Source: a virus
DNA: 64,000 nt
Virus record (IMG/VR): IMGVR_UViG_3300050821_000359
Span: 3,265 to 67,264 of that record
Reading direction: 5' to 3' (one strand)
The notes under the pieces were generated by a model. The model searched no databases and was not told the origin of the DNA. It saw only the letters and a program-made list of their open reading frames with translations. The first letter of the stretch is position 1. Each line of letters begins with the position of its first letter. Below are positions 2 to 62,206 of this stretch, piece after piece. The translations under genes and the position numbers were made by a program.

Positions 2-373
2 AAACGAGCGGCAGCGAAGCTATTCACAGCTATTGACAGGGGTGACGACTTCCCTTTAATTCCCGGTATTTGGGCGAACGTCTACAAAGCTTGGGACATT
101 GCTAACGGCGCAAATCCTATAAGTATTTTAGGACAAAGCCGACGCAACTTCAAAGTTTACCGATTCTTCAAGAACATTTTAGGAGACACAGACGGTGTAA
201 CGGTTGATAGTTGGGCGGCTAAGGTGGCTATTCCTAACTTGACGACACCTTACATCCGTGGTACTCTGTATTTGGGAATTGAGAAAGACTATCAGAAGGC
301 TGCTAAAAAGCTTGGTCTAGCTCCGAGAGACTTACAAGCTATTTGCTGGATACAGATTAGAGGGAGAGCGTAA
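2..373 (+). CDS. 5'-truncated phage protein, HhH-GPD/DNA-glycosylase-like fold
   Basis: Manual translation of frame 2 is open to TAA at 371-373: ...KVYRFFKNILG..GVTVDSWA...YQKAAKKLGLAPRDLQAICW, a pattern recalled from a widespread phage family. Confidence 0.5.
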   Translation, partial: KRAAAKLFTAIDRGDDFPLIPGIWANVYKAWDIANGANPISILGQSRRNFKVYRFFKNILGDTDGVTVDSWAAKVAIPNLTTPYIRGTLYLGIEKDYQKAAKKLGLAPRDLQAICWIQIRGRA

Positions 374-375
374 AA

Positions 376-711
376 ATGAAACAGTGGAATAGCGACAATG
401 TGGAATCTGCCATTATAAGTGTTCCAGAGTGTCAGGTTATAGCACAAGCACAACCAGAAGATTACACTACTGAAACTTTTTACGTAAATGTTTGCGGATC
501 AGAGCATAGTCTTTGGATAAGAGGTTTTAGAACTGATAGCGTACAGCCCTTATCGGATGATAATCAGATAGAAATGGTAGAGGTTACTACAGGGTATTCG
601 GACGGTGACATGCCGAACGATCCAGTTTTATGTATAGTCCATGCCAAAGTAAAGGCTGCGCTAATGACTGAAGGGTATCAAGTCGTTAACAGCATGGACC
701 CATATTTCTGA
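376..711 (+). CDS. hypothetical protein
   Basis: 111-aa ORF with GGGAG RBS. Confidence 0.6.
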   Translation: MKQWNSDNVESAIISVPECQVIAQAQPEDYTTETFYVNVCGSEHSLWIRGFRTDSVQPLSDDNQIEMVEVTTGYSDGDMPNDPVLCIVHAKVKAALMTEGYQVVNSMDPYF

Positions 712-59603: not shown

Positions 59604-60104
59604 TTAACCTAAGTAGCTAACACGCGCACTAACTGCATAGGCCAGTGCCGTACCGCTTCCTGCGGCGTAGCTTGTTGTTGCAACCACGATTGTTCCGCCA
59701 GCAGCAACGCTTACTCTAAATGTACCTTGGTTGACCACACCGGCAGCACTGACCGAAGTCACATCTGCAAGAGTGTCAGTAACCGAAGTGTTAGACGCTG
59801 CATCCGTGTACACAACTGTAATTGCGGGAAGTGTCGCACCCGTAGGTGTATTAGTAGAAACTTCATAAAGCGAAACTAAATACATACCTGCCGCTTGCGC
59901 GGTAAAAGTAAGCACGTTCGCGTTATTAGCAGTCTGCGCTGTTAAACTAGCTGCTCCTGCTGTACCTGTCGCCGGAACCCACCCATTGCCTGCGCTGATA
60001 TAGAGAGTCGAATCGACTGTATCTACACCTAAAGCGGCATAAAGGGGCGTATTACCTGCGGCGATGGTAGAAGGTTGTCCTTGAAAAATTCTATCAAAAG
60101 CCAT
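59604..60104 (-). CDS. putative capsid decoration protein
   Basis: A/T/G-rich beta protein close downstream of MCP; AAGGAG RBS. Confidence 0.55.
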   Translation of the reverse strand: MAFDRIFQGQPSTIAAGNTPLYAALGVDTVDSTLYISAGNGWVPATGTAGAASLTAQTANNANVLTFTAQAAGMYLVSLYEVSTNTPTGATLPAITVVYTDAASNTSVTDTLADVTSVSAAGVVNQGTFRVSVAAGGTIVVATTSYAAGSGTALAYAVSARVSYLG

Positions 60105-60148
60105 TATTCTCCTTGAAATTGCGCTATTCGCGCTTCTAACTATAAACT

Positions 60149-60174
60149 AAAAAGGGAGCGGTTTAGGCTCCCTT
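60149..60174 (-). terminator. terminator at the end of the HNH gene
   Basis: GGGAGC-CTAAACC-GCTCCC-TTTTT. Confidence 0.6.
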
Positions 60175-60786
60175 AGTTTCTAGCATTTTAGCTAAATCTT
60201 TTATAACTTCCAGTCTTTTAAAAACGGATTCATCAGAAACCTGACAACCATTAGCTCTGGACATAGAAGCTCGCATCCAACCATCTAGTGTAAATTTTGA
60301 CTTACTTGTTTGACAAGACATATAAGGACTTTCAGGACTACTGGAACAGCACGGAACTAAATTTCCGGGAATATGCCCCTTGGAAGAATCTAGCCTATCT
60401 AATCCCCATACTTTTCCAGACAAGGGAAACAACCCGCAATACGCGCAAGGTCTTGGATTCCCACTATCATCCAAAAAATAATGAATAGCCTCAGTAGGAT
60501 TGTTAAATCCAAACTCACGGCTTTCCTGCTTATCCGTCCATTTCATGCCTAAATATCTCTTTCTAAGTACAGGATAGTACCCATTAGACATATTTTTAGC
60601 TTTTTGCGAAAACCGCATACCTTCTTTAACATAGGAAGGTAGACTGCCGTCTTTTCTCCAATCAGTTGCCCAATCTTCGATTGTACCGGCTGAAATTCCC
60701 GTTCTCTGGACAATTTCTTTATATGATCTTTTCTTAATTAGTAATTCTAAAACTTTATTTCTGATTTCTATCGGATGTGCTTTCAT
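60163..60786 (-). CDS. free-standing HTH + HNH-like homing endonuclease next to the MCP introns
   Basis: N-terminal HTH; CAYCG, GLDRLDSSKGHIPGNLVPCC. Confidence 0.8.
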   Translation of the reverse strand: MKAHPIEIRNKVLELLIKKRSYKEIVQRTGISAGTIEDWATDWRKDGSLPSYVKEGMRFSQKAKNMSNGYYPVLRKRYLGMKWTDKQESREFGFNNPTEAIHYFLDDSGNPRPCAYCGLFPLSGKVWGLDRLDSSKGHIPGNLVPCCSSSPESPYMSCQTSKSKFTLDGWMRASMSRANGCQVSDESVFKRLEVIKDLAKMLETKGA

Positions 60787-60792
60787 TTAATT

Positions 60793-60821
60793 ACTATATC
60801 ACACTTTTGGTGAAAAGTAAA
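60793..60821 (-). promoter_or_regulatory. promoter for a probably leaderless HNH mRNA
   Basis: TTTACT-17 nt-TATAGT with TGn extension; ATG 6 nt downstream, no RBS. Confidence 0.55.
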
Positions 60822-60843
60822 GGGGATAGACTGGCTACCCCCT
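60813..60843 (-). terminator. terminator directly after the spliced MCP stop codon
   Basis: AGGGGGTAG-CCAGT-CTATCCCCT-TTACTTTT. Confidence 0.7.
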
Positions 60844-60848
60844 GAGAT

Positions 60849-62141
60849 TTAACTGATTGCGCTTGCGGCGTCAATCTCGCGGATACGGCACATTTGTTAA
60901 AAGTTTATTCAACTTTACTAAGTCATTTCTGCTTAGTTCTTATAGTTGTTTTTCCTATAAGGTCGGACTATCGCATCATCTTTGCTAAGATGTTATCTCG
61001 CTTAGTCTCTCACGGTCCCTTGCGGGTTCCGCCTTGTTGGCATTTCAGCGTTCAAGTCAATCAGAGATAATTTAACTACGACCTGTATGTTATTGATTAT
61101 AAACAAGTTAATCGTAGTATCTGGCCCAAGGCTAGTCGTGAAATGTACACGATAGCTCGTCCCACACTTGGGTAGATAAACCGGTCAGACGAATTATTAA
61201 CCGGGAATGAGTCCTTCGGGATCAGCAACGGTAGGTTCAGCATTTTGCACGATATTGCACTTAATGTTCTGCCATGCCCCGTCACCAAAACCAGTATCAC
61301 CCTGAGCACCAAGCTTAATCGAGAAGATACCGTCACGACCAAAGATATAAGTACGCAGAGCAGTTAAGCCTGTCACACTCTTATAATTGGTTGTTTGAGT
61401 AACTTGGTTCGTCTGGAAGAAGTGAACACCAGTCGAAGGAATTTCGATCATTTCGGTCAGATCAGTCGATAGCAAGTCTTCCATGCGAGCAAGACCCACA
61501 GGAGTGTGCTTCAAAATGTCGATAGGAGCATTATTACTATTATCTGCTAACACGTCACCTAAAGCGAAAGGATGTATGACGCCACAGAATGCCTTAGAAG
61601 CCTCATCAAAAGGTCTAACCGAACGGCCAGCAAGACTCTGAACCGAGTTACGAATCTGAGTTAGACTCAAAGTAGTAAACGCGGTTGTCGAAGTCGCTGC
61701 AAGCGAAGTTAGAACCGAACTATCAGTAGCACTCGCACCGTCAGCAGTTGCACGGACAAGACCACTAAGAGACTCGCCAAGACGGTATGCAAGTTCACGA
61801 GCAACATTCTCAACAGTGTTATCAATAGCTGTTGCTAAGGATAGGCTGGAGAAGTTTGCATAATCAGCATATTCACCGATGGTAGCAGTGGTTGTTAGAA
61901 CGTTAATAGAGATACCTGCACCAACAGTACCTTCAGAAACTTGAGTAGTATTTGCCGCAAAGGGCACATACATAAACATCTCATATTGATTACCACTTTT
62001 CATTGGCAAATCAAGACGTTCGGAACAAGCTACGAAAGGAGTCTGTGCTTTTAGATTTTCTCTAAACTTTTTATCATAATATCTAACCGTACTCTGAGGT
62101 AGGTTAGACTGTAGGTTACTAGCTGGACTATAATTAGCCAT
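60849..62141 (-). CDS. major capsid protein (N4-gp56-like), three exons: 62141-61199, 61162-61111, 60888-60849; 344 aa spliced
   Basis: YYDKKF...LP.KSG, EG, GEYADY, IHP motifs; joined exons read ADPEGLIPG-W-TSYRVHFTTSLGPDTT-I-RIREIDAASAIS*, followed by a terminator. Confidence 0.85.
60889..61110 (-). ncRNA. group I self-splicing intron (222 nt, no internal ORF)
   Basis: P1 ACTACGAT/GTCGTAGT with U.G at the splice site; P3 TTATCTC/GAGATAA; P7 GACTA/TAGTC; P8 CATCTT/AAGATG; three P9 hairpins; terminal G; P10 ATACAG/CCGTAT. Confidence 0.92.
61163..61198 (-). other. 36-nt core-less group I-like mini-intron
   Basis: AATAATTCGTCTGACCGGTTTATCTACCCAAGTGTG; creates in-frame stops; IGS pairs with both exons; ends in G; removal restores GGT-TGG (Gly-Trp). 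Confidence 0.8.
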
Positions 62142-62206
62142 TAGTTTCTCTTAAAAGGATTTTCAATTCCTCCAAACTAAAAATCTGTCCTTTGTCGTCA
62201 GCCTTG

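What the first reader, a model, noticed from the sequence alone, without database searches (positions are those of the whole stretch)
61163..61198. 36-nt satellite mini-intron in the capsid gene: full guide sequence, no catalytic core
Seen (minus strand): the MCP frame hits TAA TAA..TGA right after ...ATT CCC GGT. Deleting exactly 61198-61163 joins T to GG and gives Gly-Trp-Thr-Ser-Tyr-Arg, continuing the capsid frame. The insert has the substrate-selection parts of a group I intron. GACCGG (61186-61181) pairs with the 5' exon end CCGGTT with a U.G wobble exactly at the junction (P1). The adjacent TTCGTCT (61193-61187) pairs 7/7 (two G.U) with the 3' exon start GGACGAG (P10). It ends AAGTGTG, like the AAATGTG end of the full intron 52 nt downstream. 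It has no room for P4-P8. Established: group I splicing needs the P3-P8 core with the P7 guanosine site, and cores can act on P1 substrates supplied in trans. Inference: a non-autonomous intron spliced by the neighbouring ribozyme, so one core removes two introns from an essential late mRNA. I know of no described phage example, but could not search.
Basis: partly seen in the sequence, partly recalled or inferred. Interest (0 to 1): 0.97.

Follow-up and report, generated by a model that had tools for sequence, protein, structure and literature searches.

The report
Core-less mini-intron in phage capsid gene
A 36-base insert that breaks a soil phage's capsid gene is a tiny intron with the splice-site pairings of a self-splicing group I intron but no ribozyme, environmental RNA shows it cut out exactly, and it probably borrows the ribozyme of the full intron 52 bases downstream.

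Summary
The capsid (MCP) gene on the minus strand carries two inserts that intron-free relatives lack: 36 nt (61198-61163) and 222 nt (61110-60889).

Contigs from three soil metatranscriptome runs join 61199 to 61162 and 61111 to 60888 exactly. One of them matches the window at all 1026 bases. The spliced ORF is 344 aa, the normal length.

The 222-nt insert has group I topology, though Rfam RF00028 misses it. The 36-nt insert has only three parts:
- a P1 guide, with U.G at the splice site
- an adjoining P10 guide
- a terminal G

I found 28 distinct inserts of this kind (34-98 nt) in related phages. They sit at five capsid sites, plus the equivalent G^W site in a distant capsid lineage. Each guide matches its own exons, with compensatory changes.

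All 26 inserts whose contig reaches far enough lie 16-80 nt upstream of a full intron. None is the last insert in its gene. That the neighbour's core does the cutting is inferred, not shown; my odds are about 0.6.

Eight literature searches found no natural helper-dependent group I intron. The closest known are the 56-81-nt fungal rDNA mini-introns. This scan has reported the same class before on other phage genomes.

The parts
61199..62141 (-). MCP exon 1 (N4-gp56-type major capsid protein, residues 1-314 plus the first base of Trp315)
   Evidence: ORF list. PHROG major head protein phrog_1357. Homologs of 343-344 aa. RNA contigs end this exon at 61199.
61163..61198 (-). 36-nt core-less mini-intron: P1 loop, P10 guide, P1 guide, 18-nt tail, terminal G at 61163
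   Evidence: Absent from intron-free alleles. Boundaries are unique from the profile alone. Skipped exactly in RNA contigs of runs X1, X2 and X4.
61187..61193 (-). P10 guide TTCGTCT, pairing with the first 7 bases of exon 2 (61162-61156)
   Evidence: Two P10 pairs change on both sides among 7 site-193 mini-introns.
61181..61186 (-). P1 guide GACCGG, pairing with exon 1 end CCGGTT (61204-61199), with U.G at the splice site
   Evidence: This hairpin is the minimum-free-energy fold of the insert. Two P1 pairs change on both sides, tracking synonymous Pro and Gly codon changes.
61111..61162 (-). MCP exon 2, 52 nt (rest of Trp315 to the first two bases of Ile332)
   Evidence: Profile-spliced alignment. 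Present in the RNA contigs between the two joints.
60889..61110 (-). 222-nt ORF-less full intron with group I topology. P1 guide GTCGTAGT 61082-61075; P3 61070-61064 with 60999-60993; P7 61007-61003 with 60970-60966; P9.0 partner A at 60963; terminal G at 60889
   Evidence: Consensus fold of 31 family members with compensatory changes in P3, P6, P8, P9 and P9.1. Skipped exactly in RNA. The only family member in the 67-kb contig. Not found by RF00028.
60849..60888 (-). MCP exon 3, 40 nt including the stop codon (last base of Ile332, then RIREIDAASAIS*)
   Evidence: RNA contigs resume at 60888.
60163..60786 (-). Free-standing HTH plus endonuclease VII/HNH-like gene just downstream: candidate homing endonuclease of the cassette
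   Evidence: Pfam HTH_28 below its cut-off. PHROG endonuclease VII phrog_1035, E 1.1e-9. Homologs lie downstream of 6 of 17 interrupted MCP contexts and 0 of 56 uninterrupted ones.

Best explanation
The 36-nt insert is a non-autonomous group I-type mini-intron. It keeps only the substrate side of a group I intron:
- a hairpin whose 3' strand pairs with the end of exon 1 (P1, with U.G at the cleavage site)
- a directly adjoining guide in the hairpin loop that pairs with the start of exon 2 (P10)
- a terminal G

Shown: it is removed from the capsid mRNA at exactly these sites, and selection maintains the guides.

Inferred: the catalytic core (P3-P9 with the guanosine site in P7) is lent by the complete 222-nt group I intron 52 nt downstream on the same transcript.
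- That core docks the mini-intron's P1/P10 helix.
- It performs both transesterifications on the mini-intron, using the mini's own terminal G.
- It also splices itself out.
- The strong P10 tells the core which 3' splice site belongs to which 5' splice site, so exon 2 is not skipped.

The pair, together with the free-standing HNH gene downstream, probably spreads as a homing cassette in which the inserts interrupt the nuclease's target.

My odds: about 0.9 that this is an RNA-spliced group I-type mini-intron, and about 0.6 that the downstream neighbour is its catalyst.
For: RNA:
- Contigs of three metatranscriptome runs from three studies (X1, X2, X4) carry both joints, 61162>61199 (skips 36) and 60888>61111 (skips 222), with no ambiguity.
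- X1 record 1 matches the window at 1026 of 1026 bases, including 631 bases of the HNH region.
- No RNA contig spans an exon-intron boundary of this allele, and no exon-2-skipped joint is listed.

Product: the spliced ORF is 344 aa with a normal C-terminus.

Guides:
- 18 of 18 distinct short inserts at 5 MCP sites have U at -1 and a terminal G. They have a P1 of 6-13 bp with U.G at the junction, and a P10 of 4-8 bp directly 5' of it.
- For two of these (L090, L091) the U/G boundary is a synonymous one-base shift from the profile's best boundary.
- 0 to 13 of 2000 shuffles reach the observed guide length.
- At the window's site, 91.7% of cells pair, against 25-59% when partners are slid. Four pairs change on both sides, and 0 of 500 shuffles reach the covariation score.

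Helper:
- A search for the window's site that did not use the intron found 9 viral and 10 metagenome loci. All have a full intron, or its start at a contig end, 40-78 nt downstream.
- Overall, 26 of 26 distinct mini-introns with enough contig lie 16-80 nt upstream of a full intron, in at least 8 different site combinations. None is the last insert in its gene.
- 80 of 80 mini-free alleles have no intron in the last 80 residues.
- The neighbour is the only family core in the 67-kb contig.

P9.0:
- In 24 of 24 full introns, the base before the terminal G is complementary to the third base after P7 (18 U-A, 3 A-U, 2 C-G, 1 G-C).
- The mini-intron's equivalent base is complementary to the downstream neighbour's partner in 24 of 26, including 4 with the rare A-U (L119, L149, L241, L133).
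- In 3 of the 6 cases with an upstream full intron examined (L149, L119, L136), the mini's base is not complementary to that upstream intron's partner, though it is to the downstream one.
Against: - No experiment or read-level data link the excision to the neighbour's core.
- The RNA evidence is assembled contigs, not reads. RNA libraries can hold DNA, and the tool could not say whether the joined form also exists as DNA.
- Two mini-introns break the P9.0 rule: L304 ends AG beside a neighbour whose partner is A, and L313 ends CG beside a partner A.
- The P9.0 match and the co-occurrence could partly reflect joint descent of mini and neighbour as one cassette.
- These phages are intron-rich: 7 of the mini-bearing genes also have a full intron upstream. 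The window's contig is about 70% complete, so another core acting in trans is not excluded.
- The idea that the mini's TTATCT mimics the neighbour's P3 strand fails. L184 and L119 keep that motif while their neighbours' P3 differs.
- The P1 hairpin is not thermodynamically unusual (z -1.3).
- RF00028 matches neither insert.
Confidence: 0.6

Rival explanations
1. The mini-intron is spliced by a group I core, but not specifically its neighbour. Any excised or unspliced intron of this family in the infected cell, from the same phage or a co-infecting one, acts on it in trans as a multiple-turnover ribozyme.
For: - It is established that group I cores accept P1 substrates in trans, and an engineered 'spliceozyme' removes introns from other RNAs in E. 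coli (PMC4094466, abstract read).
- The phage group is intron-rich, with 214 family hits in the loci fetched.
- 7 mini-bearing genes also have an upstream full intron.
- L304 and L313 do not fit their neighbour's P9.0 partner.
- L304 carries the L119-type mini beside a different intron at a different site.
Against: - A freely diffusing helper predicts no positional rule. Yet 26 of 26 minis lie 16-80 nt upstream of a full intron, and none is downstream of the last one.
- The window's contig holds only one family core.
- In 3 of the 6 cases with an upstream intron examined, the mini's 3' end is complementary to the downstream core's partner but not to the upstream one's.
Confidence: 0.15
2. The mini-intron is a minimal self-splicing element that needs no full core. 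It uses flanking exon RNA for structure, as claimed for the 67-nt PaSSU intron of Phialophora.
For: Harris and Rogers report 63-75-nt fungal rDNA introns with only P1, P7, P10 and an intron-exon pairing. They cite in vitro splicing of the 67-nt PaSSU that required about 300 nt of exon context (PMC3160393; abstract, Background and Discussion read).
Against: - At 34-40 nt, after P1 and P10 guides of 11-13 nt and their loop, only about 18 nt remain. No P7-like pairing is conserved among the tails.
- The strict association with a downstream full intron would be unexplained.
- Established knowledge of group I catalysis requires the P3-P8 core and the guanosine site.
Confidence: 0.06
3. Proteins remove the insert. 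An RNA endonuclease and ligase recognise the helix that brings the two exon ends together, and the group I-like features are coincidental.
For: P1 plus P10 form one continuous splint across the junction, which could in principle guide a cut-and-rejoin enzyme. Bacteria and phages encode RNA ligases (established knowledge, not tested here).
Against: - U.G exactly at the 5' site and a terminal G are kept in all 18 inserts, at 5 different sites. These are hallmarks of group I chemistry.
- The terminal dinucleotide tends to follow the neighbour's P9.0 partner.
- The link to a downstream ribozyme would be unexplained.
Confidence: 0.05
4. The insert is not spliced at all. The joined RNA contigs come from an insert-free variant of the same phage, and this allele yields a truncated or ribosome-bypassed capsid protein.
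For: - The RNA evidence is assembled contigs, and the tool gave no check of the joined form in DNA runs.
- A stop codon directly follows the Gly codon, as in the T4 gene 60 bypass (the comparison comes from passages of PMC5009743).
Against: - The joined contig is identical to the window over 1026 bases, including the HNH gene. That gene was found only beside interrupted alleles (6 of 17 against 0 of 56).
- The nearest uninterrupted protein on record is 96% identical, not 100%.
- Three runs show only the joined form, and none shows an exon-intron boundary.
- The take-off and landing codons would be GGT and GGG, which do not match, and bypass would lose the conserved Trp.
- Mini lengths of 34, 35, 37 and 40 nt are not multiples of three.
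- Selection maintains the guides.
Confidence: 0.04

Closest known systems
Self-splicing group I introns of phages, such as the neighbouring 222-nt intron (resemblance to T4 td-type introns is recalled, not tested)
   Same: - 5' splice site after a U that forms U.G in P1.
- An internal guide with the P10 part directly 5' of the P1 part.
- A terminal G.
- Exact exon ligation seen in RNA.
- A homing-endonuclease gene nearby.
   Different: The mini-intron has no P3-P9 core and no guanosine-binding P7, so it cannot be a ribozyme by itself. It is 6 times shorter than the already small neighbour.
[quoted passage not shown]
   Same: Very short inserts that keep P1 and P10 and are removed from an essential RNA. 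They are interpreted as reduced descendants of full group I introns.
   Different: - The fungal ones are described with a P7 and an intron-exon pairing, a terminal U in PaSSU, and self-splicing in vitro with long exon context.
- They sit in rRNA genes, are monophyletic at essentially one site, and have no helper intron.
- The phage ones are 34-53 nt (up to 98) and lie in protein-coding genes at several sites, each with a site-specific guide. They end in G and always lie upstream of a full intron.
Degenerate group I introns of lichen mycobiont rDNA (bioRxiv 10.1101/2021.05.01.442275)
   Same: Group I-derived introns that lack sequences needed for catalysis, yet are correctly removed in vivo and so depend on something else.
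   Different: They are about 300 nt, in eukaryotic rRNA, and removed by an unidentified fungal machinery. No neighbouring ribozyme is proposed.
Engineered 'spliceozyme' (Tetrahymena ribozyme variant that removes an intron from another RNA): PMC4094466
   Same: [quoted passage not shown]
   Different: - It is man-made, and the guides sit on the ribozyme.
- Here the guides sit in the mini-intron itself, the arrangement is natural, and the presumed helper is in cis and is itself an intron.
T4 gene 60 50-nt coding gap with the mobA homing endonuclease cassette
   Same: A short, stop-containing insert in an essential phage gene next to a free-standing homing endonuclease. [quoted passage not shown]
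   Different: The T4 gap stays in the mRNA and is bypassed by the ribosome between matched GGA codons. Here the insert is absent from the RNA, the flanking Gly codons do not match, and group I guides are conserved.
Collaborative homing: an ORF-less intron plus an adjacent free-standing endonuclease (cyanophage S-PM2 psbA / F-CphI; recalled, paper not read)
   Same: ORF-less introns in a structural gene with an endonuclease gene immediately downstream, found only beside interrupted alleles.
   Different: The target and cleavage of this HNH-like protein are untested, and the known case has no mini-intron.

Membership tests
Group I intron (self-splicing ribozyme) | 5' splice site follows a U that forms a U.G wobble inside P1 with an internal guide sequence | tested here: met
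   Window: T61199 pairs with G61186. All 18 distinct minis show it. The U.G pair is invariant in 7 of 7 site-193 minis, while neighbouring pairs covary.
Group I intron (self-splicing ribozyme) | P10: the guide segment directly 5' of the P1 guide pairs with the start of the 3' exon | tested here: met
   7 bp in the window and 4-8 bp in 18 of 18 minis. Two P10 pairs change on both sides.
Group I intron (self-splicing ribozyme) | Last intron base is G (omega-G) | tested here: met
   G61163. The boundary was set by the exon profile alone. All 18 minis end in G; for L090 and L091 that boundary is a synonymous one-base shift from the profile's best.
Group I intron (self-splicing ribozyme) | Catalytic core: P3-P8 pseudoknot, P4-P6, and P7 with the guanosine site | tested here: not met
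   - 36 nt leaves 18 nt after the guides.
- nhmmer with the family profile finds nothing in 18 minis.
- Local alignments are no better than shuffles.
- The neighbouring 222-nt intron does have this core.
Group I intron (self-splicing ribozyme) | Exact excision and exon ligation at the RNA level | tested here: met
   Joints 61162>61199 and 60888>61111 appear in RNA contigs of X1, X2 and X4. These are contigs, not reads.
Group I intron (self-splicing ribozyme) | Two transesterifications started by exogenous guanosine, without protein | not testable with these tools
   Needs in vitro splicing, or detection of the excised insert carrying an untemplated 5' G.
Rfam Intron_gpI (RF00028) | Score at or above the 50-bit gathering cut-off | tested here: not met
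   No match even at E<=10 on 391 bases or on the whole contig. The model also misses the full 222-nt intron, so this says little.
Programmed translational bypass (T4 gene 60 type) | [quoted passage not shown] | tested here: not met
   GGT against GGG, and bypass would drop the conserved Trp. The insert is absent from the RNA contigs.
Small degenerate group I introns of fungal SSU rDNA (PaSSU type) | P1, P7, P10 and an intron-3' exon pairing within 56-81 nt; no helper intron | tested here: inconclusive
   - P1 and P10 are present.
- No conserved P7-like pairing is seen in the tails, though I made no dedicated search for one.
- The constant downstream full intron has no counterpart in the fungal family (PMC3160393).
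Collaborative-homing cassette (ORF-less intron plus free-standing endonuclease) | Endonuclease gene adjacent to the interrupted gene and absent beside uninterrupted alleles; the nuclease cuts the insert-free allele | tested here: inconclusive
   Adjacency and association are met: 6 of 17 against 0 of 56. Cleavage specificity is not testable here.

The most novel reading that the evidence does not exclude
These are the first natural helper-dependent (non-autonomous) group I introns. They are 34-53-nt elements reduced to a P1/P10 guide and a terminal G. A neighbouring intron's ribozyme splices them in cis, so one catalytic core removes two introns from an essential late mRNA. That would be a natural counterpart of the engineered spliceozyme and of non-autonomous transposons. 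It would also be a living intermediate on the proposed path from group I intron to the unspliced T4 gene 60 coding gap.
Probability: 0.55. Interest if true: 0.93.

Novelty: new variant of a known kind. Interest (0 to 1): 0.87.

Why it matters
Group I introns are defined as self-splicing. A natural intron that keeps only the substrate helices and relies on another intron's ribozyme would show three things:
- These ribozymes can act in vivo as enzymes on a second substrate.
- Introns, like transposons, can decay into non-autonomous forms that survive by parasitising autonomous ones.
- A 35-nt insert can interrupt an essential gene at no lethal cost.

It also gives a concrete, testable model for how short protective inserts next to homing endonucleases arise, as in T4 gene 60.

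On the practical side, gene callers truncate these capsid genes (314 aa instead of 344), and Rfam misses both the helper family and the mini-introns. Such genes are therefore systematically misannotated in soil and peat viromes.

The system is small (about 460 nt) and can be tested directly in vitro.

Tried and rejected
- **Rfam.** cmscan at E<=1 on 3 kb, at E<=10 on 391 bases, and RF00028 on the whole contig gave nothing. I therefore established the group I nature of the 222-nt insert from a 31-sequence consensus fold instead.
The window's mini has TTATCT like its neighbour's P3 5' strand. L184 and L119 keep the same motif while their neighbours' P3 is TTTACTC, so there is no covariation. Not supported.
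- **Origin by internal deletion of a full intron.** nhmmer found no similarity. Best local alignments of 18 minis to 31 full introns were no better than shuffles (13-99 of 100 shuffles as good). Short resemblances remain anecdotal: GACTAAG in L119, and a full intron at the equivalent G^W site in L122. The origin is open.
- **Thermodynamics.** The P1 hairpin is the minimum-free-energy fold, but its z-score is -1.3. With the flanks added the z-score is -0.08. This is not evidence either way.
- **Reference-free scan for minis upstream of any family intron.** It gave 15 candidates in 123 contexts, against 4 in 97 control windows displaced by 1500 nt. That is too unspecific to extend the class to other genes. 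I kept only L241 and L133, which a mini-free allele (L196) supports.
- **Translational bypass and frameshifting.** Rejected, see the rival explanations.
- **Exact 25-mer of the mini in viral contigs.** 0 hits.
- **RNA gaps.** X3 does not cover the junctions, and parts of the 222-nt intron have no RNA cover in any run. I draw nothing from that.
- **Literature.** Eight full-text searches found no natural helper-dependent or core-less group I intron in phages or bacteria. Subscription papers are mostly not held.
Full report
**What is in the window**

On the minus strand, an ORF of 314 aa (62141..61197) stops at TAA TAA right after ...ATT CCC GGT. It is a major head protein. It matches PHROG 1357, and JGI names some relatives 'N4-gp56 family major capsid protein'.

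Its close relatives (up to 96% identical) are 343-344 aa and go on ...LIPGWTSYRVHFTTSLGPDTTIRIREIDAASAIS. In the window the missing 30 residues are encoded in two further pieces in one frame. All 80 related viral loci fetched first are uninterrupted over the last 80 residues. Some carry exactly the two junctions expected after removal of both inserts.

I built a nucleotide profile from 65 distinct intron-free alleles and aligned it to the window, allowing long gaps and imposing no splice rule. The result is unique:
- exon 1 ends at 61199
- a 36-nt insert spans 61198-61163
- exon 2 spans 61162-61111 (52 nt)
- a 222-nt insert spans 61110-60889
- exon 3 spans 60888-60849

Both inserts follow a T and end in G. 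Joining the exons gives 344 aa, 331 of them identical to P0002 and the last 31 identical. The contiguous 13-bp P1+P10 guide was reached by 0 of 2000 shuffles of the insert. The insert is single-copy in the window.

**RNA evidence**

Four soil metatranscriptome runs hold parts of the region. I laid their contigs on 60100-62200. X1, X2 and X4, from three studies, each have one contig carrying both joints: 61162>61199 (skips 36) and 60888>61111 (skips 222). The tool marks both joints as unambiguous.
- X1 record 1 (1026 nt) has no difference from the window. It runs on through 631 bases of the downstream HNH gene.
- X2 record 7 (243 nt) has none either.
- X4 record 13 (411 nt) has 3 differences.

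No RNA contig crosses an exon-intron boundary of this allele. No joint that skips exon 2 is listed. X3 does not cover the area.

The limits are that these are assembled contigs, that RNA libraries can contain DNA, and that the tool gave no check of the joined form in DNA runs.

I think an insert-free DNA variant is unlikely, for two reasons. The nearest uninterrupted protein on record is 96% identical, not 100%. And the HNH gene present on the joined contig was found only beside interrupted alleles.

**The 222-nt neighbour is a group I intron that Rfam misses**

RF00028 gives no match, even at E<=10. A core motif shared by the window and L089 found 65 viral loci. An alignment of 31 distinct members folds into P3, P4/P5, P6, P8, P9 and P9.1. 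28 of the 38 predicted pairs show compensatory changes. An invariant GACTA/TAGTC (P7) interlocks with P3 in the group I pseudoknot order: P3, P4-P6, P7, P3', P8, P7', P9.

Each member has a P1 guide matched to its own exon, follows a U and ends in G. In 24 of 24 full introns in capsid genes, the base before the terminal G is complementary to the third base after P7. This is the P9.0 pair: 18 U-A, 3 A-U, 2 C-G and 1 G-C. Any resemblance to T4 td-type introns is my recollection, not a test.

**The mini-intron is one of a class**

L089, L090 and L091 show the same layout at a different place: a 34-35-nt insert, a 50-nt exon, then a 200-nt family intron. Spliced alignment of all capsid loci gave 18 distinct short inserts (34-98 nt) at five sites, after residues about 301, 303, 308, 314 and 333.

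Further examples bring the total to 28 distinct sequences:
- L178
- two in a capsid lineage only 38% identical, at the equivalent G^W site and only 16 nt from the next intron (L241 and L133, with L196 as the mini-free allele)
- seven new ones from the metagenome scan

Every one of the 18 tabulated has:
- U at -1 and a terminal G (for L090 and L091 after a synonymous one-base shift from the profile's best boundary)
- a P1 of 6-13 bp with U.G at the junction
- a P10 of 4-8 bp directly 5' of the P1 guide

Shuffles reach the observed guide in 0-13 of 2000, and guides do not fit the exons of other sites.

At the window's site the guide follows synonymous exon changes:
- the Gly codon's third base U, C or A faces A, G or U
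- Pro CCC or CCT faces G or A
- Thr ACG, ACA or ACT faces C, U or A

On a 7-sequence alignment, 91.7% of cells pair, against 25-59% when partners are slid by 1-3 columns. Four pairs change on both sides, and 0 of 500 shuffles reach the covariation score. Selection therefore keeps P1 and P10, which is what a group I reaction would need.

**What the mini-intron lacks**

After the guides and their loop, only 18 nt remain in the window's copy. The family profile finds nothing in the 18 minis. Their best local alignments to 31 full introns are no better than shuffles. There is no core, so it fails the defining test for a self-splicing group I intron, although it works like a group I substrate.

**Who supplies the core**

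This step is inferred. The indirect evidence is as follows.

1. Co-occurrence. A pattern for minis at the window's site used only exon sequence. It found 9 viral and 10 metagenome loci. All 19 have a full family intron, or its first bases at the contig end, 40-78 nt downstream. Over all sites, 26 of 26 distinct minis with enough contig lie 16-80 nt upstream of a full intron, in at least 8 different combinations of mini site and intron site. The 80 mini-free alleles have no intron in that region.
2. Polarity. The last insert in the gene is never a mini, although 7 genes also have a full intron upstream of the mini.
3. Only one core. nhmmer with the family profile finds only the neighbour in the 67-kb contig. 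The record is about 70% complete.
4. P9.0. The base before the mini's terminal G is complementary to the downstream neighbour's P9.0 partner in 24 of 26. This includes four with the rare A-U pair (L119, L149, L241, L133; three separate lineages). In L149, L119 and L136 the mini's base is not complementary to the upstream intron's partner, though it is to the downstream one.

Against this:
- L304 (mini ends AG, partner A) and L313 (mini ends CG, partner A) break the P9.0 rule.
- Shared descent of mini and neighbour as one cassette could produce part of the signal.
- Other cores in trans cannot be excluded.

**Mechanism proposed**

The mini's P1 hairpin forms first. When the downstream core has folded, it docks this P1/P10 helix in place of its own P1. 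Guanosine attacks after U61199. The mini's G61163 then enters the guanosine site, helped by G61165-U61164 pairing with A60963-C60962. Exon 1 is joined to exon 2, and the core also removes itself.

The unusually long P10 would prevent joining exon 1 to exon 3. The upstream position keeps the natural 5'-P1...core-3' order and lets the mini be processed before the core leaves the transcript.

Shown: the exact RNA junctions, the guides and their covariation, the absence of a core, and the association and polarity. Inferred: the docking, the order of events, and cis rather than trans action.

**Context and comparison with what is known**

A 207-aa HTH plus endonuclease VII/HNH-like gene follows the capsid gene. 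Homologs lie downstream of 6 of 17 interrupted capsid contexts and 0 of 56 uninterrupted ones. This fits a homing cassette of the collaborative type (recalled).

From the papers:
[quoted passage not shown] The primary paper was not held.
- Fungal SSU rDNA holds 56-81-nt putative group I introns with P1, P7 and P10. The authors call the 67-nt PaSSU the smallest intron with shown group I activity (PMC3160393; abstract, Background and Discussion).
- Lichen rDNA has degenerate group I introns that are removed by unknown means (10.1101/2021.05.01.442275, passages).
- An engineered spliceozyme removes introns in trans (PMC4094466, abstract).

None of these is a natural, helper-dependent, core-less intron, and eight searches found none.

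Earlier notes of this scan report the same class on other phage genomes, for example e1-3409714, e1-5906120 and e1-5964965. I did not test those genomes. They led me to the fungal paper.

**Verdict**

The insert is a genuine mini-intron with group I-type guides that is absent from the RNA (odds about 0.9). The downstream intron as its catalyst is the best-supported reading (about 0.6). I class it as a new variant of a known kind, with high interest.

Noticed in passing
window 60163-60786 (minus strand) and loci L091, L121, L134, L163, L183: Homologs of the HTH/HNH-like gene lie within 1.5 kb downstream of the capsid gene in 6 of 17 interrupted contexts and in 0 of 56 uninterrupted ones. This fits a free-standing homing endonuclease that travels with the introns.
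   Followed up: partly
L181, L182, L167, L132, L140, L144 and others (for example L181:4847-4944): A 74-nt insert with mini-intron features (U at -1, terminal G, P1 of 7 bp, P10 of 6 bp) contains an in-frame diverged copy of the capsid C-terminus ending in a stop. A full-length capsid protein is therefore encoded with or without splicing.
   Followed up: partly
window 60889-61110 and 214 family hits in the fetched loci: Rfam RF00028 does not detect this widespread phage group I intron family, even at E<=10. Annotation pipelines will therefore truncate the host genes.
   Followed up: yes
capsid genes of L089-L091, L119, L123, L130, L136, L138, L149, L169, L170, L184 and the window: The last 95 codons of this capsid gene are an intron hot spot. 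Full introns sit at 10 different positions (profile columns 47, 123, 128, 135, 140, 202, 209, 234, 245, 271). Each has a guide matched to its site, and four are about 800-880 nt long, which suggests an ORF.
   Followed up: partly
L102:1575-2054: After ...GWTS the capsid ORF of this 2-kb contig runs into unrelated GC-rich sequence with no intron features. It is possibly a chimeric assembly or a recombination breakpoint.
   Followed up: no
window 60919-60939 and 61032-61060 (run X1, record 2): One 193-nt RNA contig matches two short parts of the 222-nt intron, with 94 other letters in place of 92 between them. It is probably a variant intron from a related phage, present as RNA or DNA.
   Followed up: no
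L264/L295, L233/L249/L270/L279, L293, L161: Two or three family introns lie in tandem within a few hundred bases in other genes of related phages. I did not look for mini-introns there in any reliable way.
   Followed up: no
L304 and L313, about 330-1000 nt downstream of the mini-intron: Downstream of these interrupted capsid genes lies a different Cys-rich ORF (starting MPKFQDLTGN / MIFQDLTGN). It follows a conserved hairpin-like stretch, and both loci then share a near-identical tail. This may be another free-standing endonuclease cassette.
   Followed up: no
L122 (about 270-495, minus strand): A distant capsid lineage has a full-length family intron at the site equivalent to the window's mini-intron (G^W). 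Its first 25 bases match 21 of the first 24 bases of the 97-nt insert of L134. That hints minis at this site descend from a full intron, but the exon context constrains both.
   Followed up: partly
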